DNA from: Macrostomum lignano
Lineage: Eukaryota
Assembly: GCA_002269645.1 (NCBI GenBank)
Contig: NIVC01001356.1
Span: forward strand, 186,001 to 250,000
Reading direction: 5' to 3'
Length of the DNA stretch: 64,000 bases
In this document: one piece after another, positions 436-42,000 of the stretch
How the letters are laid out: each line of letters opens with the position of its first letter
Position numbering within the stretch: the first letter of the stretch is position 1
Position numbers and translations under genes: made by a program
The notes under the pieces: model-generated
Seen by the model: the letters and a program-made list of their open reading frames with translations, nothing else
Told to the model about the DNA's origin: nothing
Databases searched by the model: none

Positions 436-19591
<19,156 letters not shown>

Positions 19592-20815: not shown

Positions 20816-21460
20816 AAGGTTGAGAGATACTGCATGGGTTTAAAAATGAGAGATACCGGGTTGAATTGAAACAGGGGAGATACCTGTGAATGAGAGAAAC
20901 TCCGATAAAACAAAGACCAGTGCAAAACAGTAAAAGTACATATACATACATTTTACACGGTAATTTCAAAGATCGTATAATATGGGAAAGAAATTGGCTC
21001 AATCAAGACAATTTGCAGTCTGCTCTAACTTGAGGTGTTACAGTGCCAATGAGAAGGAATTGTAGCTAGCTAGTGCAGAAGACTGTGAAGCATCAATAGA
21101 GAAATCCTACAGAGTGCTAGACGACGCGCCTTAATTCTCTCGAGCATATAGGGGCTAAACTGCATTTTTCTACTGATGCATGGTTGAATATTGTATACGC
21201 TTGGTTAATTAGCAAACTAATTAATGAGAAGCAATTAGCAGCAATATTTGCGGTACTTATGACTTATGGTTGAGTGAATTTAATGGTATTTACGATCTAC
21301 ACGTGTAGATATGTAGATACACATATATGGAATTAGAATTTGTACGTGTAGGTAGGAATTCAGGTCGTCAGCTCTACATTCAATTACATGTAATAGGGGG
21401 ACAGTGTATTGTTGGTTGTGTGTGGCAATGCTGCATACAATCAAATGTTTCATGTAGGTG

Positions 21461-22031
21461 TCAAATGTTTTAGAATAATGTGTTGGGGGGGTGTGCCCCT
21501 CTGACTATGATCGTTGATGTTTCTGTTGAATCAAATAAGTCGGAGGTTCGATTTGTTTCTCTCGATCTCTAACCTTCAACAAGATGTTTATTACTAATCA
21601 ATGTTAGTAGCAATTCCTAATAGGATATTGATCACGCAATTACGCAAATTTGTTAAGCAATTCAGTGAAAATGGAGCCACAGGCTACTTATCGATATTGT
21701 TGCACGAATTGACGTTTGTCCGGATTTATCTCTGTTAAATCGGGATATTAGAGTTCAGGCCCGATTGTTGGGGCAAGCTAGCGGAGCAGTTGAGGAGGCA
21801 AAGAGGCGGAGACCCGAGAACCGGGAAAAACTGGAGAGAGGCTTCATTCTCACTGAACGCTAGTATATATATGATTTCTATAACGCATTTCATTGGTGTT
21901 CGCTTCACGCAATAGGATCTTTACTGGTGCACAAGCATGTGCTGTACTTTCCTGATAGAGAAACCTTCTGAAGTTCGCATTAGACTAAAAAATAACATTG
22001 GGCATAACATGCTTAAATTAAGATCACTTCA
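21461..22031 (-). repeat. 3' LTR
   Basis: Direct repeat of 28514-29084; preceded on the minus strand by GTGAAATAAGGGCAA (PPT-like, 22032-22046). Confidence 0.93.
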
Positions 22032-22712
22032 TTGCCCTTATTTCACAAAGCGAAGGCCCACCGAGCGGCATAAGCAAAAGAAAACAGGTGTTGGATTATT
22101 AGTGAAGTTGTAACTAATGCTACTTGCATACGAGGCGCAAGGTGTAGGCTAGAGAAAGTGGATAAAGTGGTGAGTAAAATGGTGAAAATAAGCATAGAGC
22201 ATGGCTTAGGAAAGGGTCTTAAATATTAGAGTAAAGCTGTTGAAACCAAAGTTAAATGAACAGAGGAATAGCAAGGAGGATAAAATAAGTTTCAAAAGTG
22301 GCTTATTAAAGGGTTTGCTAAAACAGACAAAGACAGATAAAACAGAGAATTTTCAGATGGACGAAAATAGGCAACAAGTAAAGTTAGAGGTATAAATAAA
22401 ATTGAGTAAAGGACAGTCAAACGAAATTGAGATTATTAAAGAAACGACTGGGACGCAAGGTGAAAAAGAAAGCTATTTTTAATCAAGGGTGTGGAATGTA
22501 CATTGTACGTGGGGTCGAAGAGATTATTGGCTTGGGGTGGGTGTTCGTAGAGCGCGTGAGTGTACACTGAAGCTAATTCAAAGGAAAGGATGGAGTCGCG
22601 TGGTATAAATAAGATAAAAAACGATAGGGAGGGAATTTTCTAGTTCAGGTTTTGTCCGCAATTGTTTTTAAGTTTCGATATAGCTCGTTTATCATTCAAG
22701 TTAGATTAGTCA

Positions 22713-22967
22713 ATGGCAGGTCTGTCTTTGGGAAGAGAGCAAATTACAGAGATCGCGGCTGGTATTCTCCAGGGGCGTCACGCGTATTTCATTTCCATCA
22801 GCGCGGTCGTCGCCATCATGCTGCTGCTGCTGTTACTGCTAGTGGCGGCGTTTGTAGCCTGCTGTTGTTGCTGCAAGTGTTGTTGCTGCTTTGGCGGCTG
22901 CAGCCGCTGTTGTCGCGCACCATTGCGGCCCGCTGCAACTGCCCGTGTCCAGGAGACTGCGGTGTAA
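22713..22967 (+). CDS. Putative 84-aa single-pass membrane protein with juxtamembrane Cys cluster, antisense within the LTR element
   Basis: ATG...TAA; about 26-aa hydrophobic segment followed by CCCCCKCCCCFGGCSRCCR; TATAAATA at 22604-22611; AATAAA near 23453 and 23489. Confidence 0.5.
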   Translation: MAGLSLGREQITEIAAGILQGRHAYFISISAVVAIMLLLLLLLVAAFVACCCCCKCCCCFGGCSRCCRAPLRPAATARVQETAV

Positions 22968-23788
22968 CTGCACAGTTGGTCTGCCAAGTCTTCTGCGTCC
23001 TTTGGGCGCCAACGTCAAAACGGCCTTTTTCAAGGCCACCACGTGTCAGATAGTGCTGTTCGTCTTAGTTTTGTTGCAGCCAGTAGGGTTTCTGTAGTCA
23101 GGCCGGTGTCGTAGTTCGTAGTTAGCCGTAGTTGTCGGTAGCAGGCATGTATTCTGTTAATTCTGAGCATAGCAGGTTGTTTCCAAGTAGTAGATAGGGC
23201 TGGGCAGTGGGCCGGGTTGGTGTTGAACAGAGTCGAAGCTGAATTTCGGTCAGGGCAGCGTGTAGAGCCGGATTGCAGTGTAGAGCGGGACGGCTGTGTA
23301 GATCCGGGTAACGCGTGGTCTTACAAAAGACCGAATAGGGATTATGAGGTGACGAAAGAAAAGATCATTGAGTTCACGTGGGTGAGCAAGAGTAGAGAAG
23401 ATGGTTCTGATAAATTTTTTCAAGGGTGAGTGATAGTAATTAAAGGTAAGCAAATAAAATGTAGGGCTAAAGCGTTTGACGACAACAGAATAAAACAAAA
23501 ATTTTGATAAGAGTGTTGAGAACTGACATTTCTACTGTGAGTAGCAAAAGAGTAGCGTATTGTCAAGGAAATTATCTAACGAAGATAGATAAGTTGAAGC
23601 GGAAAATGATAAATTGCGATTTAAGAGGAAGAAAGATATAATATATAATTATAAAACTAATAGAAATAATATAAACGGAAATAATTTTCAAAACGTATCG
23701 ATAATCAACTGTCCATCGATAATCAACTGCCGCGTATTGATTCACACATCCCGTGAGCGCAGATGATATCGCACAGCTGGAATAGGTT

Positions 23789-26566
23789 CTAGTCCGTGCT
23801 GATCACGAGTGTCAGGCTCATCCACGACGTCAGTCTGAGTAGCGTGATGCTGTGCCAGTGGCGGGTGGTGGTCGAAGTGAGTCTGTGGTATCGATGATGT
23901 GAAGTTCGGCAGATTGAGTTCCAGATTGATTTATAGCGTTTCATGTTGTCAAAGGTTTTCTCAATAATGCAGCCTTGAGATGAATAGCTACAGTGTGCCA
24001 TGGAGAAGGCTAACGATTCCATTGGTTTGCTAGGAGAGGCGAAAGCTATTATCCCTTGTATGAGTGTTGAAACTATTTGAGTTCGTGCCTTGCGATGGTA
24101 ACAGTCTTCGAGGAAGGAGGTTCCTGTATTGGAGCGAGAGATTTTGTAGTTTCCAGTGGTGGCAACCAGTTGAAGCTGACCATCAGGTGAGTTATATGAT
24201 TCGGTCCAATGTTGGCAATCTTGTGCGGCGACTGTAAGTGGGCGTAAGGTTACGTACGCATCACGGAGAGAGCGCAGAACCTGGCTCATTGGGAGGCAAT
24301 TAACCGAGATTTCCTCACGGAAGCATAAGCTGACTGGTGTTCTGGTTTGCTCCAGGTTAGTAGAGTAGAGCTGTAAGTGCACTGGTGTCGTAACGTCCTG
24401 TGACGACGTGAACTGTTCGCATCTGATCTGCTGAGGAATCTTGAAGATGCGCACGGGTCCATCTAATGGACAGAGCATTGGTGTGTCCACGTAGAGTGGA
24501 TGTTGCTTAGGATTCGATGGCAGTGGTGTTGTCTGCACCGTCGGGAATAGCGATAGCCAGATGAGTGTCACGAGAAGCGTCGTTAGACCAGTTAGTCGAC
24601 GTCCTTTCTGCTGAGACAGTGGTCTTTTTACGTGTACCTGCTGTCGCTGGGCACGTAGCATATCTTTTCTTAGCTTTGGTTGAGCGGCTGATAGCGTAGT
24701 GTACGGTTGAACGTGGATGACTGACAGTGTAGATGGACTGTCGCGGATTAATTTCTTAAACTGCCTGGTCGAGCCATGGAACTTGTACTCAATTGGTCTG
24801 TCCAAAGCATAGGTTGGAGTAGCCGTTGATTTTGACACAGGAACCTCAGTGAGACGCTGTGGAGCACTGGGTGTGCTGTTCGGTGGCACAATTTGTTGAG
24901 GCGAGTCCATAGTCGGCAGTTGTGGCATGGGGTCGTTCGAGACAACCTGAATTGAGTTTACACCGGCTGCAGGAGGGCGCGGTGACGGTGTTCTGGAACG
25001 TCCGTGGTTTGGTGAATCAGAGTGGCGTTCCCGTTGATATCGTTGAGTGGGGTTGCGCTGAAATTGTACGCGCCGGCCTAGATTATACCGCTGTGGGTTA
25101 TTGTTTGTTGTTCTCCCCTGTTTAATATCGTGTAGGGTACGACATTCTTCGGTATCATGGGTGTCCGAGTTGTGAAAGTGGCAGTATTTGGCTGGAGAGC
25201 CTGTGTCTCGGCTGCGAGGATCATCGGAGCCTCGTCTGTACCGGTCTTGAATCGGTTGATTGCGTGTCCACTTAGAGTCAGCCTGTCTTGGTTGTCTAGC
25301 ATTGGCAGTTTGTTGGCGTGCATTTCGAGGATCCTGGTAGCATCGATCTGTTGTGTGTCCAATCCTGTGGCAGAATTTGCACGTTGGTGGTTCTCTAGTA
25401 TTGCTAGCGCCTTGAATAGCCGCTACTATTGGCTTGGGCTTGATGGTTCCACATTCTAAGGCAGCAAGGCGTTTTTCTATATCGGCCGGAACGTTGTTTG
25501 GGGCCGTTAATTGTGAAGACTGCTGTATTTGTTCAAGGCGAATGGCCTGGTTGAGCAGCTGTTGTTCGGTATTCAGCGGGTTTCGCAGTAGTTCAACGCG
25601 AAGGTGAGGTAGAGCGCCACTTAGTATATGGCCGATCAATGTTTTGTTAAACATTTCATTTCGTTGGTCAATGACCGCTTGGTTAGCCGGTGCATTTTCG
25701 CCATCCACGGGTGGTAGTGGCGAGACTTCTGGGTAAATGGCACGAAGTTTGCGGCGAATGTCCGTGTAGTACTGGATGAATGGCTCACCCGGGAGTTGTC
25801 GGCGGTTGGCGATGTGATGTAGTGCCGAAGTGGATCCGAGAGTGAGTACCGCTATTCTGTCGGACAGAGACCGAACTAATTGGGTGTAGTCATTTTGTGT
25901 CTCGGCGGGTAGAGCGGCATATTCGATCTTTAGGAGATCGTTGAGGAGCCGAGGAAAGATGCGAAGCTTTGAGTTTTCATCTAGATTAAAAGTTCTCGCT
26001 GATAGATCATACTCCATGATGAAAGAGGCAAAATCATGAAGTTGATCTATCTCCTTGAGACCTTCGCGGATCTCGTTGATGGTACTAGCTGGGATTGCAG
26101 CGTGTGGTCTTTGTTGATCTCGCACAGCATTGATAAATTGTTGCATTAGTGCTTCTGCCATTGTAACGTTGCTCTCAGTTTCCTGGATATTGGCGTTATT
26201 TTGATTCAAATGATCAGGTTGCAGAAGTGGCTGTGGAGGATTTTGTTCTTGTTGCTGCTCGTACAACTCAGAAGGTTGTTCTTCGTCTCTGGTGCCGATG
26301 GCAGTGTTTTCTTGATGGAGGCCAGGTAGATGGCAAAATGTAGCTGGGGTAGCTGTTTGTGTTAGTTGCTGTTGGGTGTCGTCAGTATGGTGTCCTCCAA
26401 TGCCAGTAGAATGTCCACCAATACCAGTAGAATGTCCACAAATGCCAGTAGAATCACCAGAAATATCAATAGGATTTTCAGCGACACCGGCAGAATTTGG
26501 TGTGGATATTGCAGGCGGCTCTTGTTGTTGTTGTTGTCCGAGTTGGGTACCAGAACGCAATTTCAT
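23789..26566 (-). CDS. 925-aa Gag-(linker)-signal peptide-viral glycoprotein-like fusion; Env part appears truncated
   Basis: MKLRSG start; Gypsy capsid-like core (RRQLPGEPFIQY); zinc knuckles CKFCHRIGHTTDRC (25340-25381) and CHFHNSDTHDTEEC (25142-25183); no D(T/S)G, YxDD or integrase motifs; hydrophobic LTTLLVTLIWLSLFPTVQT at about aa 660-680; then a Cys-rich domain (PMLC, DCQHW, SPDGQL, HCSYSSQGC). Confidence 0.85.
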   Translation of the reverse strand: MKLRSGTQLGQQQQQEPPAISTPNSAGVAENPIDISGDSTGICGHSTGIGGHSTGIGGHHTDDTQQQLTQTATPATFCHLPGLHQENTAIGTRDEEQPSELYEQQQEQNPPQPLLQPDHLNQNNANIQETESNVTMAEALMQQFINAVRDQQRPHAAIPASTINEIREGLKEIDQLHDFASFIMEYDLSARTFNLDENSKLRIFPRLLNDLLKIEYAALPAETQNDYTQLVRSLSDRIAVLTLGSTSALHHIANRRQLPGEPFIQYYTDIRRKLRAIYPEVSPLPPVDGENAPANQAVIDQRNEMFNKTLIGHILSGALPHLRVELLRNPLNTEQQLLNQAIRLEQIQQSSQLTAPNNVPADIEKRLAALECGTIKPKPIVAAIQGASNTREPPTCKFCHRIGHTTDRCYQDPRNARQQTANARQPRQADSKWTRNQPIQDRYRRGSDDPRSRDTGSPAKYCHFHNSDTHDTEECRTLHDIKQGRTTNNNPQRYNLGRRVQFQRNPTQRYQRERHSDSPNHGRSRTPSPRPPAAGVNSIQVVSNDPMPQLPTMDSPQQIVPPNSTPSAPQRLTEVPVSKSTATPTYALDRPIEYKFHGSTRQFKKLIRDSPSTLSVIHVQPYTTLSAAQPKLRKDMLRAQRQQVHVKRPLSQQKGRRLTGLTTLLVTLIWLSLFPTVQTTPLPSNPKQHPLYVDTPMLCPLDGPVRIFKIPQQIRCEQFTSSQDVTTPVHLQLYSTNLEQTRTPVSLCFREEISVNCLPMSQVLRSLRDAYVTLRPLTVAAQDCQHWTESYNSPDGQLQLVATTGNYKISRSNTGTSFLEDCYHRKARTQIVSTLIQGIIAFASPSKPMESLAFSMAHCSYSSQGCIIEKTFDNMKRYKSIWNSICRTSHHRYHRLTSTTTRHWHSITLLRLTSWMSLTLVISTD

Positions 26567-28502
26567 GCAATGATCTGTGGAATGGGTTTACTTCGAGTGG
26601 TCTTGCAATTAAGAGTTGAAAATAATTCGCAATTTTGTAACAATAAAGATTTGAAATAGCGTGAAGCAATAGCATCTGAGCGTGATTTGCGGTCATCTAT
26701 CCAGGGTCAGTTTTTTGTTTTATATAAGCAAATTTTCAATATGTAGAGCTTCGGTAGCTGTAGTATCAATTATCAAAAGTGTGAGTTTAGAGCAATTTTG
26801 AGCAAGTGTTGAACAGTTGTATAAAGTAGAACTGAGTAGAGTCGGCTGATGCGCCTGTACTAATTATAATATAGCTCAGCGGTGGAGCGGTTAAAATATT
26901 TCATAGAAGCAGCAAGAAAAGCTGAGCCTCATCCTTGGATTGAGTTTGATTAGAATTTGAACAGATTTCGGTAGAAGATTCAGCGGAGGCGGCAATGTGC
27001 GCGTTGATTGATGCCTTTGAGATTGAACGGATTGGCGTTGAAAACTCAGCTGGTGAGTTGTGGTTAAGATGCCAGCGGATGTGGCGATGCGTGTTGAGTA
27101 CGCGATTTGAATTTGTTGTAAAAGGAACGAAAGAGACTCTGCAGAAGTCTGTGGAAGCAAGGCAGAGGCGTATGAGTGGCGTGCCAAAACTTCAAACTTG
27201 GAACACGATGAGCATGAACCAAGCACCAGTCCTGGGTTTAAGTGTGTAATTGACAAATAGATTCGGCCGACTAAAATAGAATTATTATTACCTGAAGGCA
27301 GGTGTAGAGGTCCTGTGTATAGGACAAATTGCCGCGGGCTTATCGCTGCTAATCATGAAGAAATGATGTGGCTGCTTGAAATTGAGAAACAAGGAATAGG
27401 GAATAGGAGAGGGTGGGTAGCAATCACAGCGTAATTTTTATTTTGTTTTGAGAAATTTTGAACGACTGCGAAGGCTAAAGGGCTGGTGTATGGGTAGACG
27501 AGGGTGGTAGGTTGTACTTTGCGGAGAAGGAAAGCGGATTGTAGTATAAATAAGAGCTTGGGACGGAAATTATTCCCATTAGAGAACAATGGGGGTTTCT
27601 GATGGGAAAGCCCAAGGAGGGGGAGCAGCCATTGAAAAAAAATGAATTCCCTGGGGTAAGAGAAGATTGAGAGTACTGAGAGTGTCGCACCGGTGTGACA
27701 GAATCATTCTCCCTCACTTTCTATCCCTGAGGATGAGAATTGCAGCGGAGAGAAGAGCTGGAGCGGATCACAGCTGAATTGTGGTAGGGCGTTGAGCCAA
27801 CTGAGTGAGGCGCGGAGCCGATAGGGCGTTTTAGCCAACTGAGTGAGGCGAACTGAGGCCAGTTGAGGCTGGTTTGTGAACTGATGCAGACCGGAATGGA
27901 ACTAGAATTTCCAGAAGACGAAAAACGATGCAGATCTGCTGTGAACCAGCCGGAGTAAAGGCGGAATTCTCCGGACGAGAACTGGTTTTGCGAGGCTAAA
28001 AATAGAAAAAGGATTGAGACAATGCTGGTTGCCTGGTTGGGATTTGTCGCCCAGGCAGGATATTTATAGAACAGAGTGAGATTGTGGAGAAAGAGCAAGG
28101 TGAACTTGACGTTCTTTGAGGTGAGGCGAGCAAAGTACTCGGAGAAAGTATATCAGAAGGGCGTAAATAGTGGGAATGGGTGGATTCCCATCGGAACCGG
28201 TTTGAGGACTGGTTCGCTGCTGGTTCTCCGAAGCGGGAGAGCGATTAGAGGTTGTAAATTTAAGAACATTAAATAACACTAATCTTTTCTACGATTCTAC
28301 AGCTTGGGAGAATCATACACGTAGTATTTTTGTAGTTTTGCAAATTGTATTGGTTTTTATATTTTGTAATTTTTTAATTTTTATATTTTTTACTGACCCT
28401 TTCTAAGATGCCATCACTAGCTCATAGCCAGCTCCACGGAGGTGTTCACCCCAGCATATTGAAGCCGGGCATGTTGAAGGAAATTACGGAGAGAAACAAG
28501 GT

Positions 28503-28512
28503 CGGGGAGCCA
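28503..28512 (-). promoter_or_regulatory. Primer-binding site TGGCTCCCCG, complementary to the tRNA-Asp(GTC) 3' end
   Basis: 1 nt after the 5' LTR. Eukaryotic tRNA-Asp ends ...CGGGGAGCCA; 10-nt match. Confidence 0.75.
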
Positions 28513-28513
28513 G

Positions 28514-29084
28514 TCAAATGTTTTAGAATAATGTGTTGGGGGGGTGTGCCCCTCTGACTATGATCGTTGATGTTTCTGTTGAATCAAATAAGTCGGAGGT
28601 TCGATTTGTTTCTCTCGATCTCTAACCTTCAACAAGATGTTTATTACTAATCAATGTTAGTAGCAATTCCTAATAGGATATTGATCACGCAATTACGCAA
28701 ATTTGTTAAGCAATTCAGTGAAAATGGAGCCACAGGCTACTTATCGATATTGTTGCACGAATTGACGTTTGTCCGGATTTATCTCTGTTAAATCGGGATA
28801 TTAAAGTTCAGGCCCGATTGTTGGGGCAAGCTAGCGGAGCAGTTGAGGAGGCAAAGAGGCGGAGACCCGAGAACCGGGAAAAACTGGAGAGAGGCTTCAT
28901 TCTCACTGAACGCTAGTATATATATGATTTCTATAACGCATTTCATTGGTGTTCGCTTCACGCAATAGGATCTTTACTGGTGCACAAGCATGTGCTGTAC
29001 TTTCCTGATAGAAAAACCTTCTGAAGTTCGCATTAGACTAAAAAATAACATTGGGCATAACATGCTTAAATTAAGATCACTTCA
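28514..29084 (-). repeat. 5' LTR (TGAAGTG...CATTTGA in element orientation)
   Basis: Direct repeat of 21461-22031; followed on the minus strand by the PBS. Confidence 0.93.
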
Positions 29085-29249
29085 GGTGACAATTCAATTA
29101 ACTGCATGTGGGAAACTATATGCGGGCAGTGTGTGTAGCTTGCTTGCATCTCAGGCCGGGGCTCCAACCCGCTGTGATTTTTTATTGGGTAAGGCGCTCT
29201 GCCTGTGTAAGTGCTGTATGCATATAGTGCCGCGTCTTGGGGGATTTCA

Positions 29250-30659: not shown

Positions 30660-32635
30660 TATGTAACGCAAGCTAGGACGCCCATGTACGGATGGGCGTT
30701 ATTCCTAGTAGCTGTAAATTCAAATTTACGATGTTAAATAAATAAGAAATCACAGACTTATCTCTAGCTCTTTGAAATCAAATGCTTTTCTAAGGACCAC
30801 TCTATATAACTGTTTTATACCGTGATCGTTGTGCTTTACTCGACATGGTTAGTTTGTGAGCAATTGTTATATTAACTTATCTTTATACTTAAAAGAACTT
30901 TTGATAACACGTAAATATAAAAGGTAAAAATTATTTTTTAACAATTTCTACAAACATTTGTTTAAACCTTTAAAAGACAAACTAGTCGAATTTAACTCAA
31001 ATTTTTTTGTAAGAAATAGAAAAGGAAATCCGAAGTAAGTTGAACTGGGTATCGTCGTCTGCATGTGCGTGTTGTTGAATGTTGACTCGAAAGTTGGTTT
31101 TTGCATTCTTTAGATGGTTTGAAAGTCAAGACAAGGTGACTATGTTTTGTTTATAGTCGCAGTTTAATTTTTACGGGAAATGCTACTGATAATTTCAATA
31201 TGTTGCTTAGCTTAGTTTTTGAATTTTATTTTATCGGCTTGGCTGGCTTGCGACTGTCAGGAATTTTAAATTTGCAGCCTGATACGGACTACTTACGTGT
31301 TATAACTTATAATGCCACTGTCAGTCATTGCTATCATTAAGTATGTCTTTCATATCAAGTAGTTATATTTTCAACATAGCTTAGATAGACTAATTGAATT
31401 AATAGTAATAGGTCTAATATTTTTGCAGGCTTGCACTTCCACTTGCAGCTTGCTTATAATTATAATTATAAAATTATACTTTATGCTGCAGTAGCAGTAG
31501 GTAGGCTTAGTGAACTCACTATTGTCATTGATTGTCAGGTCAAATTTTGTGCAGTTAATGTTTTTAATAAACTTGTCATGATTTTTAAAAATTTTCTATT
31601 GATATCTTTGACTTGTCTTTAACTCTATTGCCAGTGTTGGAATAAATATGTAGCCATAGCAGATGCCTATATTTTTGCACCTTACTAAGAATCTTGGTAT
31701 ACAATATTTAGGTCCAATATTACCAAACACAATTATTATAGTTTTATACAAAAATGGCCAAGTTTGGGTTTGGCTATAGTATATAATATAATATAGCTAA
31801 CTTTTGATCAAAAAAGCTCTTTTATCAAAATAAAAACTAAGCTGAAATAGTAAGCACCTTACAAAGAAAGTGTACTTATAAAACTAAAATAGCTTTTGCT
31901 TCTATGTAAAAAGTTATATAAGCAAGTTTTTTGGCAAAATTTAATTTTATAATTATAGCAGCCTAAGCCTTAAAAAAATTTTTTTGATCTAGATTATAGA
32001 TTATTAGATTTTAAACATTTATTCCATTTGACTAGGCCTATAATAAAATTTTAACTTTACTTTTAATTGAATTCTATCACAAATAATTTATAATGCAACT
32101 TTGTCTTTCAAAACAACTTAATGAAGTATGGTATAGTATATCTAAGATCTAAAATTATAATATTCTTTCAATAACCATAAGAAATTTAAAATAATCATCA
32201 TATTATAAAGGATAGATATGTAGTATTATTAAACTATATTAAATAAATGATTCCCTAAGTCTAACACTTAAAAAGCTAAGCAAAAGAATGTATCATGTAA
32301 TTGACGAGATTGAATCTATAGAATTAAAGTACAAGTGTCATATGTAGCTTAAATTGTCAATTTAAATAACGGCTTATATTACTATGAACTAGGTTGTACT
32401 TATAGTAATAGTGATATTTAAGTCTAAGCTTTTTAATATTGCTTTGTTTAATAATTTTTTAAATCATACTAATTTTACCTTTTTGCATTATTCAATTTAC
32501 TATACAAATTTCAGTGCACATTATGCAATGACTTGAAGTTGTTTGCAACTTCAAAAATTCTTGTTTTTAAAAATACTATTGCTGTCACATACTTAAAGAT
32601 TACTGACTGAAAAAGCAACTTGATAGAAAAAACAC

Positions 32636-33036
32636 ATGGGCTGCTCTTATTCCAAGCAGTCTGTGGCAGGTGTTGAGAGAAACCAGCCTCAACAGGTGAA
32701 TCTGCAGCAAGCAGCCATTGCCAATGGAGCTAGCAGTGCATCTGCTCAGGCCACAGATCTCACCGATATTCAAGTTGAAGAACTATGGCCAAAATTCATC
32801 CAGGCCATAGACATAACTGCAGATCGAGCCAGGGACATGGCTGCTCTGGATAATGATAAAAAACGACAGGCTGTGCAAAACTGGCTGAAATCTGTTCAAC
32901 CTGGTCAGAACAGCCACACTGTGGGATATTATGTAACCCAGCTGCAGCGCTGCATCAGACACGGGTCTGCTGTTAGTGGAGAGAAAATCGATCTGATTCG
33001 CAGCTTGGAGAATAGTTTGAGAACTTATTCTGTTCA
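32636..33036 (+). CDS. FMNL exon 1 (acylation motif, start of GBD)
   Basis: MGCSYS...LIRSLENSLRTYSV; donor CA|GTGAGT. Confidence 0.88.
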
Positions 33037-36000
33037 GTGAGTACAACTGTTTTATGGCTTATCCGTTATAACTTGTTGATTCGTTTACTCTGCGTGTTTT
33101 TGGGTCTTTGTTCCGTGTAGTTGTGGGTCTTTGTTCCGTGTAGTTTGGGGTCTTTGTTCTGTGTAGTTTCGGGTCTTTGTTCCGTGTAGTTTGGGGTCTA
33201 TGTTCTGTGTAGTTTCGGGTTTTTTTCCGTGTAGTTTCGAGTCTTTTTTCGTTTAGTTTCGGGTCTTTTTTCGTTTAGTTTCGGGTCTTTGTTCCGTGTA
33301 GTTTCCGGTCTTTGTTCTGTTTAGTTTTCGGTCTTTGTTCTGTAGTTTGGTGTCTCTGTTTTGTAGTTTCGGGTCTTTAATCCATATAAGTTTCGGGTCT
33401 GCTGCGTAGTATGGGGTTCTTGTGTAAGCACATACGGCGATATATGAAGTAATAGCTGTAATACTTCGTGCATTTTTTGCGAACCAAACAAGTGGTTAGT
33501 TTGCACCTAAAACAAAAAATAATCTTAATTATATGCGCAGTGAAGACCGCCTCTTCTACTCAGCTTTTTCTGACAATTTAATTCTGTTTACAACAATTTT
33601 TTTTACTGAATCTCCTATTTTTTACGCGCTTGTAGACTTGAGTATGTTTTCTCGCAAAAAGATACCGTTGCTAAAAATAGCATCATGCTTATGATAGAAG
33701 GTTTGCTGTGGAATCAACCATTGCAATTTAAGTTTGAGAACTGTGAGAATTTTCAAATTCACAGTTCGGTGATATTTTTCAGAATCATGAGTGCCATTTG
33801 TCAGAATCATAAATGCCATTTGTCAGAATCATTAGTGCCATTTGTCAGAATCATGAGTGCCATTTGTCAGAATCATAAATGCCATTTGTCAGAATCATAA
33901 ATGCCATTTGTCAGAATCATAAATGCCATTTGTCAGAATCAAAAGTGCCATTTGTCAGAATCATAAATGCCATTTGTCAGAATCATAAATGCCATTTGTC
34001 AGAATCAAAAGTGCCATTTGTCAGAATCATAATTGCCATTTGTCAGAATCATAAATGCCATTTGTCAGAATCAAAAGTGCCATTTGTCAGAATCATAAAT
34101 GCCATTTGTCAGAATCATAAATGCCATTTGTCAGAATCATAAATGCCATTTGTCAGAATCATAAATGCCTTTTTTGTCAATACACAAGCACCCTAACATT
34201 AAAAACATTTCTCACAGGTGGCTGGAACAATTTATCGAAGAAGGCGGCCTCGACCTGTTAATCGAATACATGGGCCGATCTTTGGACGATTTGATCAGGT
34301 AAAGTTCAAGATGTACTTTTATTGTGTTCGAAAAAATCAAAATAACCCTTGTTGCCTCGTTGTAAAACAAGCTAATGCACTGAAGGTTGTATATTTATTT
34401 AGTGTATAAAATAACTCGATTTGTCACCCCCACCGATTGATATAGATGGTGGATTGGCAGAATAATGCTATCACAATCTGCACCATTGCTAAGTTCGTAA
34501 GTTATCAAATTTTAGATTATTAAATCTTGATTGCTGTGTAACCAACTAATAGATAGATCAATTGATATTTAATATAAATTATAACTGCATGTTCTGTGTG
34601 CCTCTTAACTTACAATAAAAACGGGTGCAGTATCGGAATGTGTACATGGGAATAATTCATATTCTTCTCGATCTACCGTCTCGATCTCTGTCTGCGGTCT
34701 GTCTGATCTCTATCTGCCGTTTGTCTGATCTCTATCTGCCGTTTGTCTGATCTCTATCTGCCGTTTGTCTGATCTCTATCTGCCGTTTGTTTGATCTCTA
34801 TCTGCCGTTTGTTTGATCTCTATCTGCCGTTTGTTTGATCTCTATCTGCCGTCTGTCTGATCTCTATCTGCCTTCTGTCTGATCTCTATCTGCCTTCTGT
34901 CTGATCTCTATCTGCCGTTTGTCTGATCTCTATCTGCCGTCTGTCTGATCTCTATCTGCCGCCTGTCTGATCTCTATCTGCCGCCTGTCTGATCTCTATC
35001 TGCCGTCTCTATCAAGTTGATAAAAATTGCAATATTTTCAGTGTTTTGTTTAACACGCATGCAGGCATGAATGGCTTGGCGTGCAAAGAGTTATGAATAC
35101 TAATATCTACTACCATTATCACAATAAAGATAGCGACTAATTTAAGCATTGCTTTCTGTATACAACATTTCATATTTTGCGGCGTTAGTTTTGTGCTGTT
35201 TCGGCTTGGCTTTGGACTGTTTTGATCTTGTTAAATGGATTAATATAAAAGTTGTATCCAGCTTCTATGGCGGCATCGCGGTTCCTTTTGATGTTGCTGA
35301 TGCACCATCATTTTTTAAAGATATCTCTGTCCTCAATTCATTTGTTGATTTCTGTTGTCTGTGTGCCTGTTTATCTATGCCATAGTTTTCTCAGCATTTT
35401 TCGCACTGCCTGTCGGATCTCTCTAATTACATTCTCTCTGATCTCTATCTGAAGTTTCTGTGATCTCTATCTACAGTCTCTGTGATCTCTATCTACAGTC
35501 TCTGTGATCTCTATCTACAGTCTCTGTGATCTCTATCTACAGTCTCTGTGATATCTATCTCACAGTCTCTGTGATCTCTATCTACAGTCTCTGTGATCTC
35601 TATCTACAGTCTCTGTGATCTCTATCTACAGTCTCTGTGATCTCTATCTACAGTCTCTGTGATCTCTATCTACAGTCTCTGTGATCTCTATCTACAGTGT
35701 CTGTGATCTCTATCTACAGTCTCTGTGATCTCTATCTACAGTCTCTGTGATCTCTATCTACAGTCTAAGTGATCTCTATCTACAGTCTCTGTGATCTCTA
35801 TCTACAGTCTCTGTGATCTCTATCTACAGTCTCCGTGATCTCTATCTACAGTCTCTGTGATCTCTATCTACAGTCTCTGTGATCTCTATCTACAGTCTCT
35901 GTGATCTCTATCTACAGTCTCTGTGATCTCTATCTACAGTGTCTGTGATCTCTATCTACAGTCTCTGTGATCTCTATCTACAGTCTCTGTGATCTCTATC

Positions 36001-39000
36001 TACAGTCTCTGTGATCTCTATCTGAAGTTTCTGTGATCTCTATCTACAGTCTCCGTGATATCTATCTCACAGTCTCTGTGATCTCTATCTACAGTCTCTG
36101 TGATCTCTATCTACAGTCTCTGTGATCTCTATCTACAGTGTCTGTGATCTCTATCTACAGTCTCTGTGATCTCTATCTACAGTCTCTGTGATCTCTATCT
36201 ACAGTCTCTGTGATCTCTATCTGAAGTTTCTGTGATCTCTATCTACAGTCTCCGTGATATCTATCTCACAGTCTCTGTGATCTCTATCTACAGTCTCTGT
36301 GATCTCTATCTACAGTCTCTGTGATCTCTATCTACAGTCTCTGTGATCTCTATCTACAGTCTCTGTGATATCTATCTCACAGTCTCTGTGATCTCTATCT
36401 ACAGTCTCTGTGATCTCTATCTACAGTGTCTGTGATCTCTATCTACAGTGTCTGTGATCTCTATCTACAGTCTCTGTGATCTCTATCTACAGTCTCTGTG
36501 ATCTCTATCTACAGTCTCTGTGATCTCTATCTACAGTCTCCGTGATCTCTATCTACAGTGTCTGTGATCTCTATCTACAGTGTCTGTGATCTCTATCTAC
36601 AGTCTCTGTGATCTCTATCTCACAGTCTCTGTGATCTCTATCTACAGTCTCTGTGATCTCTATCTACAGTCTCTGTGATCTCTATCTCACAGTCTCTGTG
36701 ATCTCTATCTCACAGTCTCTGTGATCTCTATCTACAGTCTCTGTGATCTCTATCTCACAGTCTCTGTGATCTCTATCTACAGTGTCTGTGATCTCTATCT
36801 ACAGTCTCTGTGATCTCTATCTACAGTGTCTGTAATCTCTATCTACAGTCTCTGTGATCTCTATCTACAGTGTCTGTGATCTCTATCTACAGTCTCCGTG
36901 ATCTCTATCTACAGTCTCTGTGATATCTATCTCACAGTCTCTGTGATCTCTATCTACAGTGTCTGTGATCTCTATCTACAGTCTCTGTGATCTCTATCTA
37001 CAGTCTCTGTGATCTCTATCTACAGTCTCTGTGATCTCTATCTACAGTCTCTGTGATCTCTATCTCACAGTCTCTGTGATCTCTATCTACAGTCTCTGTG
37101 ATCTCTATCTACAGTCTCTGTGATCTCTATCTACAGTCTCTGTGATCTCTATCTACAGTGTCTGTGATCTCTATCTACAGTGTCTGTGATCTCTATCTAC
37201 AGTCTCTGTGATCTCTATCTACAGTGTCTGTGATCTCTATCTACAGTCTCTGTGATCTCTATCTACAGTCTCTGTGATCTCTATCTACAGTCTCTGTGAT
37301 CTCTATCTACAGTCTCTGTGATCTCTATCTACAGTCTCTGTGATCTCTATCTACAGTCTCTGTGATCTCTATCTACAGTGTCTGTGATCTCTATCTACAG
37401 TGTCTGTGATCTCTATCTACAGTCTCTGTGATCTCTATCTACAGTCTCTGTGATCTCTATCTACAGTCTCTGTGATCTCTATCTACAGTGTCTGTGATCT
37501 CTATCTACAGTGTCTGTGATCTCTATCTACAGTCTCTGTGATCTCTATCTACAGTCTCTGTGATCTCTATCTACCTACAGTCTGTGATCGCTCTGAGTTC
37601 ACACAGTTTCGAAAAGCCATGTCTATTTCTTGTGTCAGTTTATTGTCATTTAAAAAACTTATTATTATAAGACAGCCCCGCAGCTAAAATAACACAAAAA
37701 ATAGGATCCTTGTTTTTATATGCTATTTTTCATAGCTGCCATGTAAGCGGTTTGCTGTGCTATAATATTCTGTGTTGTTTGCCATTATTCTGGCTGTCTG
37801 TCTGTCTGTGTTTTTTGCCACCTTATAGAATCCTGAGTCCTAATAGATCTGTTATTTAAAGTTCTAAATTTAGACTAGCATATTACGTATCTACTGTAGT
37901 AATGCCATGCTTGCTTTGCTTTAGAATGCGCAGATTCAGATATTTAATTTTAGTTAGTGGCGCAAGCGATAAAGAGAGTTCTGTGCCCGCGTGTGCAATG
38001 TAAGGTAAACAAAAATATTCAAGTTACACTGGCCCGCTTGGAAAGTAGAAGTTGCTTAGCATAAGAAAAATGTATGTATATTATATATAATTTAGGCGTT
38101 TACCTAGTTAGATACATCTGCCTTATTGTAACAGTGACTTTTGTGCAGCTTTGCATTGCAAGGTTTTGGGCTTGAGGTAGCGGGTGGTTTTCTGTTTGCT
38201 GCCAAAGTGTTTTTCTTATGCAGTTGCTAGGTTGTTCCTTTTTTCGTGATGTACAAGCAAGCGAACTTGCCTAAATTAGTTTATAGTTCAGTTTTTTAAA
38301 GAAGGTACATCTTGATATAAATTTAAAAAGTTCCTTTTTTAAGATTTGCATTGGAATGCAATTTTAACTGAGAGAAAGTCTTGACAGTGAGATTCTTAGA
38401 CTGACCCGAAACTGCAGGGTGAGATTCTTAGACTGACCTGAAAGTGCAGGGGTGAGATTCTTAGACTGACCTGAAAGTGCAGGGGTGAGATTCTTAGACT
38501 GACCTGAAACTGCAGGGGTGAGATTCTTAGACTGACCCGAAACTGCAGGGTGAGATTCTTAGACTGACCTGAAAGTGCAGGGGTGAGATTCTTAGACTGA
38601 CCTGAAAGTGCAGGGGTGAGATTCTTAGACTGACCCGAAACTGCAGGGGTGAGATTCTTAGACTGACCCGAAACTGCAGGGGTGAGATTCTTAGACTGAC
38701 CCGAAACTGCAGGGGTGAGATTCTTAGACTGACCCGAAACTGCAGGGGTTAGATTCTTAGATTGACCTGAAACTACAGGGGTGAGATTCTTGGACTGACC
38801 TGAAACTGCAGGGGTGAGATTCTTAGATTGACCCGAAACTACAGGGGTGAGATTCTTACATTGACCAGAAACTACAGGGGTGAGATTCTTAGATTGACCA
38901 GAAACTTCAGGGGTGAGATTCTTAGATTGACCCGAAACTACAGGGGTGAGATTCTTAGACTGACCCGAAACTACAGGGGTGAGATTGTTAGACTGACCCG

Positions 39001-42000
39001 AAACTACAGGGGTGAGATTCTTAGATTGACCCGAAACTACAGGGGTGAGATGTGCTTAACACTTACAAGACCCATCTAAAATCCCTGGGAATTTTTAACG
39101 CATTCTCTACCAGATCCGAGGACTCGCTGCCCCTATTGAACGGTTCCGCCGCGGCGGCTGCGGCAGCTCTGGGTGCCGCACCCGGCAACATGTCGGCCCT
39201 GTCGCCCTCTCTGCAGCGCTCCACCCTCGGTCCAAGCCAGCCTCAGCAGACTCCGCCAACGGCAAAGTCAAAATCCGGCAAATCTGGCAAACGGCACAAG
39301 GCCGCTGCAGTCGGCGAGACCAGCTTCGTTGTTAGCGGCGGCAGCGGCGCGCGCGCAGGTCGTCGACGTTCGTCCTCGGCGCTGCGCGTTGGCAAGAGTC
39401 AGTTCCATCGACTGCAGCTGGCCGGAGCTACTGTTGAACCGGACGAGTCGCTCTTGAACGATTTGCACAATGGCATCAAGTGCATGCGGGTGTTCTTTAA
39501 TAATCAGCGCGCTTGTCAGAGAACTTTTCAGGTGAGACCATGCCTTTCTCTAGTCTCACCCTGCCGGTCTCTAGTCTCACCCTGCCGGTCTCTAGTCTCA
39601 CCCTGCCGGTCTCTAGTCTCACCCTGCCGGTCTCTAGTCTCACCCTGCCGGTCTCTAGTCTCACCCTGCCGGTCTCTAGTCTCACCCTGCCGGTCTCTAG
39701 TCTCACCCTGCCGGTCTCTAGTCTCACCCTGTCTGTCTCTAGGCTCACCATGTCCTTTTCTAGTCTCACCTGTGTCTCTAGTCTAACCCTGTCTATTTCT
39801 AGTCTCACCCTGTGTCTCTAGTCTCAACCTGAAAATTCTCCCTTTCTGTCTGTTGTCTCACCCCGTCAGTCTCTAGTCTCAACCTGTCTGTCTGAAATTT
39901 CTCCTGTCTGTCTGTTGTCTCACCCTGTCTGTCTCTAGTCTCACCCTGTCTGTCTCTAGTCTAACCCTGTCTGTCTCTAGTCTAACCCTGTCTGTCTCTA
40001 GTCTCATCCTGTCTGTCTCTAGTCTCATCCTGTCTGTCTGTTTTCTCACCCCTTCTGTCTCTAGTCTCACTCCGTATGTTTCTGCTCATCCTGTCTGTAT
40101 CCACTTTCTCTCTCCCTGTCTCTACTCCCTCTTCCCTATCTCTCTACATGTCTAAAATACACGCTATATCTGTAGTCTCACCATGTGAGACTTGCCAACT
40201 TGCCATTCCCCCAAAACCTACCTACTTGCAGGACAAGACCGCCATAAACATAATTGCCCAATGCCTGTTGCATCCCCGTTTCGCCACGAAGACTCTGGTG
40301 CTGGAGCTGCTGGCAGCCCTGTGCATGCTAGACGGCATGCACCAGCAAGTTCTGGACGCTTTCGACTTCTTCAAAGAGCGAGTCGGCGAGAAACGCCGCT
40401 GGGAGACTTTGATGATGCACTTTAAGCAGCATGACAGCCTACCGGCTGAGCACTACTGCCTAGAGTTCATGATCAGCTGCGCCAGGTTCATCAATATTGT
40501 GCAGAATGTCAGCAATGAGCACATTGGACTTCGGGTCTTTTTACAATCGGAATTCTCCCAACTGGGTCTGGACAGCTTCCTGCACTCGTTGCGCGGTCAC
40601 TACGAGGATGCGAGATTAAATAGTCAGATTGAAGCGATATTTGAGAATAGCATCGATGTTGCCGGCTTGTATCAGGACTCGCTGGCTAAGCAGAGCGCCG
40701 TTACTAGGTGAGTTTAGCGACAATTAAGCGCCACATTGTCTAGACTTCAGCGCCAATTAAGCGCCACAATCTAGACTTTGGCGACAATCAAGCGCCACAA
40801 TCTAGACTTTGCGCCAATTAAGCGCCACAATCAAGACTTTAGCGCCAATTAAGCGCCACAATCTAGAATTTAGCGCCAATCAAGCCCCACAATTTAGACT
40901 TTGGCGACAATTAAGCATCACATTCTAGACTTTAGTGCCAATTAGGCGCCATAATCTAGACTTTGGCGACAATCAAGCGCCACAATCTAGACTTTGGCGA
41001 CAATCAAGCCCTACAATCTAGACTTTGGCGACAATCAAGCGCCACAATCTAGACTTTAGCGCCAATCAAGCGCCACAATATAGACTTTGGCGACAATCAA
41101 GCGCCACAATCTAGACTTTGGCGACAATCAAGCGCCACAATCTAGACTTTAGCGCCAATCAAGCGCCACAATCTAGACTAAAGCGCCAATTATAAGCAGT
41201 AGAATCTATGACAAAAATCACAGCAGTGATTTAACTAATTCCAATATCCCCTATTCCTCACCCCGCAGAGCCGCTGCCCTGGAGGAGCAACTCTACCAAA
41301 CTCAGTCCCGACTCCGTGAAGCCGAAGACACCGCCGCGGAACGCTTGGCGGAGCTGCGCGAACGCTTGACCAGCCGGGAGGCGGATTGCGCAACCCTTCG
41401 AGCTGATAAAGAGGCCGCACTCGAGGAGATGCAGAACAGCCTCAGTGCCGCGAGCAAGCACGCGGACGAGAAACAGCACCGACTGGCTCAGCGACTCGCA
41501 GATTTGGAGACGAAACTCCGCCAAGCCGAATCTGCCGTCGCCGCCGCGAAAGAGCGGGAGCAGAAACTGCTGCAACAATTGCAGCAGCAGCAGCAGCAGC
41601 AACCGACTGAGACGCCGGGAGTTCCCGCCGCTAAGATTCCCGGCGTTAATTCTCCGGCTCCCGCTGCTGCAGCGCCACCTCCTCCGCCTCCGCCTCCGCC
41701 GCCACCACCACCGCCGCCGCCACCGCCTGGAGGTCCGGGCGGTCCGCCGCCTCCGCCCCCTCCGCCGCCTCCGCCAGGCGTCCCAGGCGGAGCCGGGCGT
41801 TTAGCGGTGAAATCTCCGCTGGTGCCGAAGAATCGTTTGCCAATGTTGAATTGGACAGCAATACCTGCCAATGTGTGTCGGGGCACCGTGTTTATGGATA
41901 TGAATGACGATCAGGTTGGTTGCTTTAGTTGCTTTTGCACTTTTTATAGTGTAAAATATGTATATTGTAATCCTTTCATATCCAAACTAAGCTCCCTTCA

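What the first reader, a model, noticed from the sequence alone, without database searches (positions are those of the whole stretch)
21461..29084. Young pol-less LTR element whose only long ORF is a Gag-Env-like fusion
Seen: complete cis-kit (571-bp LTRs with 2 differences, GGTG TSD, tRNA-Asp PBS, PPT-like tract) and a stop-free 925-aa ORF with a capsid-like core and two zinc knuckles. After the usual Gag end (AGVNSI) there is no protease, RT, RNase H or integrase; a ~120-aa linker leads to a signal peptide and a Cys-rich ectodomain. Known: non-autonomous LTR elements are mobilised in trans, and some Gypsy/BEL elements capture viral envelope genes. Inference: the near-identical LTRs and TSD mean this exact pol-less structure was recently reverse-transcribed and integrated by a helper. 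It would be a satellite retroelement that supplies capsid and a membrane/secreted module while borrowing enzymes.
Basis: partly seen in the sequence, partly recalled or inferred. Interest (0 to 1): 0.88.

Follow-up and report, generated by a model that had tools for sequence, protein, structure and literature searches.

The report
Deleted Gag-Env-Pol retroelement, antisense membrane gene
This is a single, internally deleted copy of a young flatworm retrotransposon family whose long copies encode capsid, a herpesvirus-gB-like envelope and the enzymes in one reading frame, so it is likely a dead end rather than a satellite element; the family also carries a tiny opposite-strand gene for a predicted membrane protein that likely does a real, still untested job.

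Summary
The sequence features are real: 571-bp LTRs with 2 differences, GGTG target duplication, a 13-nt tRNA-Asp primer site and a 925-aa ORF. The interpretation mostly fails. The genome holds eight 13.4-kb copies (about 99.5% identical) whose single 2,852-aa ORF reads Gag–Env–protease–RT–RNase H–integrase. The Gag–Env fusion is therefore the parent's design, not a product of pol loss. The window copy lost 5,742 bp (codons 879–2793): three quarters of Env, its membrane anchor and nearly all of pol, with a frameshift. That junction occurs in 1 of 9 copies. Env folds like herpesvirus gB. Gag-Env-Pol order is already published for nematodes, bryozoans and flatworms, though this family is not among that paper's flatworm rows. 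What looks new is an antisense 84-aa ORF (window 22713–22967) for a predicted single-pass protein with a cysteine string and basic tail. It sits at the same place in five related families, shows dN/dS of 0.08–0.15 among copies of a sister family, and forms a divergence island. It resembles FAST/sORF2 proteins but is antisense, lacks their myristoylation motif, and sits beside an env. Its function is untested.

The parts
28514..29084 (-). 5' LTR, 571 bp
   Evidence: 2 substitutions against the 3' LTR
21461..22031 (-). 3' LTR, 571 bp
21457..21460 (.). 4-bp target site duplication (second copy at 29085-29088)
   Evidence: a single copy of the site in two homologous empty loci; 4-bp TSDs in the 7 long copies with both ends
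28500..28512 (-). primer binding site, 13 nt, tRNA-Asp(GTC)
22032..22044 (-). short polypurine-tract-like sequence
   Evidence: identical in all 9 copies
23789..26566 (-). 925-aa ORF: first 878 aa of the family polyprotein (873/878 identical) plus 46 aa of out-of-frame tail
25142..26149 (-). Gag capsid-like region and two zinc knuckles (aa ~140-475)
   Evidence: Atlas first hit Ty3_capsid/Retrotrans_gag cluster at 0.94, a lead; profile of 7 relatives hits Gag/nucleocapsid chains at E 2e-5 to 1e-4, mainly through the knuckle; zf-CCHC in 6 of 7 aligned Gags, not the window's own
24536..24592 (-). predicted internal signal/first membrane segment (aa 659-677)
   Evidence: hydropathy 1.65 (19-aa) and 2.01 (15-aa); matching segment called in 7 of the other 9 long ORFs that cover it; cleavage inferred
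23931..24529 (-). N-terminal ~200 aa of a gB-type class III Env; stalk, crown C-terminal part and anchor deleted
23922..23931 (-). deletion junction: 5,742 bp lost, 8 nt inserted, frame shifted; 7 of the 8 nt repeat a word 5 nt into the right flank
   Evidence: unique in 1 of 9 copies; rough chance of the repeat ~1.5%
23740..23922 (-). last ~60 codons of the polyprotein (after the integrase core), now out of frame
22713..22967 (+). antisense 84-aa ORF: 23-aa N-terminal part, hydrophobic segment, Cys string, basic tail; predicted single-pass membrane protein
   Evidence: open in 8 of 9 family copies; positional equivalents in 4 other families; dN/dS 0.08-0.15 in the sister family

Best explanation
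The window element is a single, internally deleted and likely dead-end copy of a recently expanded Ty3/gypsy family whose long copies carry Gag, a predicted gB-type class III envelope and Pol in one 2,852-aa reading frame, and the deletion most likely arose once, by double-strand-break repair after insertion. Shown: gene order, single frame, copy counts, breakpoints, gB-like fold of the model. Inferred for the parent: the polyprotein is threaded through the ER with Gag in the cytosol. An internal signal (aa 659-677) opens the ectodomain and a second membrane segment (aa 1483-1501) returns Pol to the cytosol. The element's protease would cut at recurring VN(S/T)(I/L)-like sites, and furin at two basic sites (aa 1022, 1192) that flank a Thr/Ser/Pro-rich insert. 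Gag, Env and Pol would be made 1:1:1 and start out membrane-tethered together. The deleted copy could still make Gag and a secreted, non-fusogenic Env stub. The antisense ORF is very likely a real gene (about 0.85), transcribed from the integrated copy and so regulated apart from the polyprotein. I rank its job as: palmitoylated surface accessory that excludes or modulates entry of related particles (0.35), FAST/sORF2-like membrane fusogen (0.25), other such as viroporin or assembly scaffold (0.4).
For: Eight 13.4-kb copies share LTR, PBS and PPT and are 0.4-0.6% from the window copy. The Gag/Env boundary is unbroken in 8 of 8. The ORF is open end to end in 4 of 8 and Pfam gives protease, RT, RNase H, integrase after aa 1626. 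Short-read contigs from three runs cover 7.7-9.8 kb of the laid long-copy stretch in one piece with 0-4 differences. The junction is in 1 of 9 copies; 5' and 3' internal probes return the same 9 near-identical copies. The inserted 8 nt look templated from the flank. Three of 4 private ORF substitutions change the amino acid. The Env model (pLDDT 66, mostly >85 in the ordered parts) matches herpesvirus gB at E 8e-15 and nyami/chu/rhabdo-like glycoproteins at 7e-21. Antisense ORF.
Against: The time of the deletion is not fixed: the two homologous loci are empty. Both window LTRs share a 6-bp gap and one substitution absent from the 8 long copies, so the direct donor is not in the assembly and may already have been deleted. 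Reverse transcriptase can also make deletions with insertions (recalled). The junction was not seen as a joint in 4 of 4 laid runs, though such contigs drop rare variants. Only 40 of 136 LTR candidates were scored. Processing sites are read by eye and by regex, not tested. The whole-model TM-scores to gB are low (0.3-0.4) because the insert is disordered.
Confidence: 0.85

Rival explanations
1. Satellite element: the pol-less form is itself a mobile lineage that borrows enzymes from the long copies and supplies capsid and a secreted module.
For: All cis signals and Gag are intact. Near-identical long copies with open ORFs exist as possible helpers. LTR-shared private changes show an unsampled donor. 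The insertion is in 1 of 3 homologous loci, so it is recent.
Against: One copy only. Env is cut at one quarter and frameshifted. No sign of selection on the retained ORF (very few sites).
Confidence: 0.08
2. Assembly artefact: the locus really holds a 13.4-kb copy and the deletion is a mis-join.
For: The junction was not recovered in 4 of 4 laid runs. Half of the long copies show frameshifts, which may be sequencing errors.
Against: The junction has an 8-nt insert, not a clean repeat collapse, and no repeat links the two breakpoints. The copy has its own private substitutions on both sides. Contigs of this kind drop rare variants, as the tool states.
Confidence: 0.07
3. The antisense ORF is not a gene. 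It is the shadow of low-complexity CAG/CTG-rich DNA or of a short sense-strand reading frame that shares third codon positions.
For: The sense frame that shares third positions has no stop across the span in 5 of 10 copies. The C1189/C4628-type ORF is missing from close relatives C368 and C1674. No expression data: no run is on record as RNA. Sequence similarity between the families' ORFs is weak (E 1e-4 to 7e-3 in a small database, low-complexity driven).
Against: That sense frame has stops in the other 5 copies, including the window family, and has no ATG ahead of the span. The antisense frame starts with ATG and keeps one architecture in five families. Changes fall on third positions (24 of 33 for C172 vs C759). 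In two of three pairs ORF indels are multiples of 3 while frameshifting indels run up to the ATG; the third pair has two compensating 2-nt gaps. Resampled 3' regions gave such an ORF in 0-5 of 300 trials; the criteria were set after seeing the ORFs.
Confidence: 0.15

Closest known systems
GAG-ENV-POL Ty3/gypsy 'ancient errantiviruses' with HSV/gB-type Env in Nematoda, Bryozoa and Platyhelminthes (PMC13524379; Sacco et al. 2022 cited there, not held)
   Same: Gene order, gB-type Env bounded by a signal and a membrane segment, Ty3/gypsy Pol, multiple near-identical copies, flatworm host (host label).
   Different: The paper's one Macrostomum row has 864-bp LTRs and another PBS. That fits the C2112-type copy here, only ~31% identical in Pol. 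This family has ~577-bp LTRs, a tRNA-Asp PBS, a ~190-aa mucin-like insert between two furin-like sites and an antisense small ORF. The words antisense, mucin, polyprotein, small ORF and accessory have 0 hits in that paper's main text.
sORF2 of MDG1-group retrotransposons and reovirus FAST proteins (bioRxiv 10.1101/2025.03.14.642691)
   Same: 63-107 aa size range, one membrane segment, short N-terminal ectodomain (22-28 aa in three families here), juxtamembrane basic patch.
   Different: All 105 published candidates are in sense orientation and were selected for an N-myristoylation motif; the MDG1 elements lack env. These ORFs are antisense, lack the motif (0 of 8), carry a Cys string, and sit in elements that already have a gB-type env.
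Antisense ORFs between pol and the 3' LTR in plant Retand elements (PMC11963269); retroviral antisense genes (HTLV, mentioned there)
   Same: Same position and orientation.
   Different: Retand antisense products are larger, mostly TRP28-domain and predicted DNA-binding, not small membrane proteins.
Ordinary internally deleted LTR copies versus amplified non-autonomous families (TRIM/LARD; definitions recalled)
   Same: Both LTRs, PBS, PPT and TSD kept; pol lost.
   Different: No amplification: 1 copy with this junction.

Membership tests
Ty3/gypsy (Metaviridae) LTR retrotransposon (parent family) | Pol order PR-RT-RH-IN | tested here: met
   PR 1626-1705, RT 1969-2124, RH 2190-2322, IN 2433-2606
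Ty3/gypsy (Metaviridae) LTR retrotransposon (parent family) | LTRs, tRNA PBS, PPT, short TSD | tested here: met
   LTR ends are non-canonical TGA...TGA
GAG-ENV-POL errantivirus, HSV/gB type | env between gag and pol | tested here: met
GAG-ENV-POL errantivirus, HSV/gB type | class III gB-like ectodomain fold | tested here: met
   weak Pfam PF24664 E 5e-4, below the curated cut-off
GAG-ENV-POL errantivirus, HSV/gB type | placement in the published POL tree and Cys-bridge class | not tested
   the paper's sequences were not used; my tree has only local and database relatives
GAG-ENV-POL errantivirus, HSV/gB type | enveloped particles, fusion activity | not testable with these tools
   needs experiments
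Non-autonomous (satellite) LTR family | cis signals kept, enzymes lost | tested here: met
Non-autonomous (satellite) LTR family | several insertions of the same deleted structure with different TSDs | tested here: not met
   1 of 9
sORF2/FAST-like protein | small single-pass protein, short ectodomain, at least 3 K/R within 15 aa after the membrane segment | tested here: met
   8 of 8 examined, by hydropathy only
sORF2/FAST-like protein | N-myristoylation motif MGxxxS/T | tested here: not met
   0 of 8
sORF2/FAST-like protein | sense orientation on the genomic transcript | tested here: not met
   antisense in all five families
sORF2/FAST-like protein | cell-cell fusion activity | not testable with these tools
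   needs expression assay

The most novel reading that the evidence does not exclude
Enveloped Gag-Env-Pol retroelements of this flatworm carry a second, provirus-expressed membrane gene on the opposite strand: a palmitoylated, non-myristoylated FAST/sORF2-like fusogen or exclusion factor that is swapped between near-identical elements as an allelic module. This would be an animal LTR element with two membrane-acting systems under separate control, and even pol-less copies like the one in the window would keep expressing it.
Probability: 0.3. Interest if true: 0.75.

Novelty: new variant of a known kind. Interest (0 to 1): 0.48.

Why it matters
The headline claim (a pol-less Gag-Env satellite) falls away: this is one broken copy. 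The parent family is still useful. It is a young, multi-copy, single-frame Gag-Env-Pol element in a tractable flatworm, which makes the open question of how such elements process Env and Pol and set their ratios addressable from RNA and protein data. The antisense small membrane gene is under purifying selection, optional in one lineage and polymorphic in another. The published sORF2/FAST screen could not have found it, since it required a myristoylation motif and covered arthropods. If it acts on membranes, it widens the accessory-gene repertoire of invertebrate enveloped retroelements towards that of complex retroviruses.

Tried and rejected
Pfam on the window ORF: 0 families. Word-based homolog search with the whole Env: no hit among 7,998 candidates. 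Single-sequence fold of Env: pLDDT 35, not used. The idea that deletion created the Gag-Env fusion: rejected. The idea that the PBS is tRNA-Glu: rejected for this family; sister families do carry a Glu-type PBS. Same-site copy with pol: not found, both homologous loci empty. Sequencing runs: no RNA holder listed; no joint for the window's deletion in 4 of 4 runs, uninformative because contigs drop rare variants. Atlas on the small ORF: SMIM5/22-like hits at 0.90 with low recognition, a weak lead. Nine weak genome hits to the small ORF: 5 fetched; 4 were not in related elements, 1 (C513) was a C1884-type 3' fragment. The RT tree does not settle one versus two origins of the small ORF (the C1189/C4628 group joins the ORF-less group at 84/62). 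Sacco et al. 2022 is not held. The Cer1 paper passages added nothing. Earlier findings of this scan: none returned.
Full report
Observation. On the minus strand, 21461-29084 is bounded by 571-bp LTRs with two substitutions and a GGTG duplication. The primer site matches 13 nt of a tRNA-Asp(GTC) gene type in this genome. The only long ORF is 925 aa, with no Pfam family.

The family. An LTR search of the own genome gave 41 matches from 40 scored of 136 candidates, including eight further two-LTR elements of about 13.4 kb. I fetched all eight. Each aligns with the window copy in two blocks separated by about 5.74 kb. Seven with both ends have 4-bp TSDs and 0-4 LTR substitutions; C270 and C4280 have near-identical 5' flanks and may be one insertion. 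Copies differ by 0.1-0.4%, the window copy by 0.4-0.6%. Four of eight carry one open ORF of about 2,852 aa; four have frameshifts. Pfam places protease, RT, RNase H and integrase from aa 1626 onward. The Gag/Env boundary of the window is unbroken in 8 of 8 long copies, so the fusion predates the deletion. Contigs of three public runs cover 7.7-9.8 kb of the laid stretch in one piece with 0-4 differences, so the single frame is no assembly product. A database protein identical over the 1,011 aa searched and of the same length is labelled Macrostomum lignano by its source.

The deletion. It removes 5,742 bp against the open copies, from codon 879 to 2793, inserts 8 nt and shifts the frame. Seven of the inserted bases repeat a word just inside the right flank; my rough chance estimate is 1.5%. 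This resembles polymerase-theta end joining, though reverse transcriptase can make similar junctions (both recalled). The junction occurs in 1 of 9 copies. Probes next to the PBS and in the 3' region return the same nine near-identical copies plus 4 and 2 partial, more distant matches. Two homologous loci carry the empty site, so the insertion is recent but the timing of the deletion stays open. Against a clean post-insertion story: both window LTRs share a 6-bp gap and one substitution not seen in the eight long copies, and no laid run showed the junction. I put a one-off dead end at 0.85, and within that favour repair after insertion roughly 2 to 1.

The envelope. The C-terminal ectodomain has weak Pfam hits to Monjiviricetes fusion protein (E 5e-4) and herpesvirus gB (E 0.01), both under cut-off. 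A model built on 28 aligned sequences reached mean pLDDT 66 with a disordered middle. It matches herpesvirus gB structures at E 8e-15 and nyami-, chu- and rhabdo-like glycoproteins at up to 7e-21. A ~190-aa stretch with 54% Thr/Ser/Pro lies between two furin-like motifs in this family and its two nearest relatives; the six more distant copies examined have one motif and no insert. The window copy keeps only about 200 aa, without the long central helix or the anchor.

How the parent likely works (inferred). Two hydrophobic segments (aa 659-677, 1483-1501) would put Gag and Pol in the cytosol and Env in the lumen. Recurring VN(S/T)(I/L)-like words at aa 536, 1600, 1844 and 2346 sit at domain borders and would suit the element's protease. 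No frameshift or stop separates the genes, so the products would be equimolar unless splicing intervenes; no joint was seen in contigs, which is weak.

Wider clade. The Env probe gave 126 matches in the genome, from 100% to about 25% identity. Of 10 loci fetched in full, 8 had paired LTRs; those with long frames show the same Gag-Env-Pol order. Two outside proteins (47-49% in Pol) have an Env C-terminus fused to Pol, and two others of ~3,770 aa have Gag, PF24664 and Pol in one chain. The single-frame design is therefore not unique.

The antisense ORF. Window 22713-22967 (+) encodes 84 aa: a 23-aa N-terminal part, a hydrophobic segment, a Cys string (12 Cys in all) and a basic tail. It is open in 8 of 9 family copies. 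Among 9 loci with an LTR-bounded 3' region, five families have such an ORF (67-89 aa) at the same place and four copies of a distant group have none. Of 20 further loci, 7 had the C172-type ORF; several of the other 13 were partial or belonged to the distant group, and two close relatives of the C1189/C4628 type lack the segment. Within the C172 type, dS/dN is 0.46/0.054, 0.79/0.066, 0.72/0.108, 0.22/0.032 and 1.48/0.21 for five pairs. Within the window's own family there is too little variation to test; against C1884 the synonymous sites are saturated. Frameshifting indels run up to the ATG and stop there. The ORF and its upstream 250 bp are 81-84% identical between two elements that are 93-100% identical elsewhere, which suggests exchange of old alleles. 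Caveats: the sense frame sharing third positions is stop-free in 5 of 10 copies, though without a start; expression is unshown; the ORF is known from one species.

Comparison with print. PMC13524379 (abstract, passages, sections 6 part 1, 14 and 22, and the nine Platyhelminthes rows of supplement 1) reports GAG-ENV-POL elements with gB-type Env in nematodes, bryozoans and flatworms. Its Macrostomum row matches the distant C2112 type by LTR length and PBS, not this family. Its figures and other supplements were not seen. bioRxiv 10.1101/2025.03.14.642691 (abstract, passages, sections 8 and 10; supplements not seen) describes sense-strand sORF2/FAST-like proteins. PMC12801592 (passages only) classifies 137 LTR families of this species, with no 'antisense' hit and its one 'env' hit being 'environment'; its supplements were not read and may list this family. 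PMC11963269 (passages) covers antisense ORFs in plant Retand elements. Sacco et al. 2022 was seen only as a reference title. I found no report of an antisense small membrane gene in an animal env-carrying Ty3 element in searches (listings only, open-access library).

Verdict. The finding as written is an ordinary deleted copy of a known kind of element. The family is an uncatalogued-looking variant with a mucin-like Env insert and an antisense membrane gene under selection. Interest 0.48.

Noticed in passing
window 32627-46097 (+): Exons of a formin-like gene (poly-Pro FH1 and FH2-like stretches, label from recall) separated by introns filled with minisatellite arrays.
   Followed up: no
window 892-2190 (-): Open 432-aa Tc1/mariner-like transposase frame (label from recall).
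   Followed up: no
L017:1028: Loose contig ends with the same foreign sequence in two runs: another structural variant of the family, branching inside gag.
   Followed up: no
L089 (C1674), about 5385 in element orientation: A 254-aa sense ORF follows pol in this relative, which lacks the antisense ORF; the stretch is partly shared with C4628 and C1189.
   Followed up: no
L101 (C513:439500-449400): C1884-type 3' region with the antisense ORF and LTR but no pol in the 6 kb before it: another truncated copy that kept the small gene.
   Followed up: partly
L022-L041: LTR ends and primer sites vary across the clade: TG..GA with tRNA-Asp, other ends with Glu-type PBS, TG..CA in the distant group.
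   Followed up: partly
P0004, P0005: Closest outside relatives (58-60% in RT-RH); one is labelled as a bacterial MAG protein by its source, probably animal DNA in a metagenome bin.
   Followed up: partly
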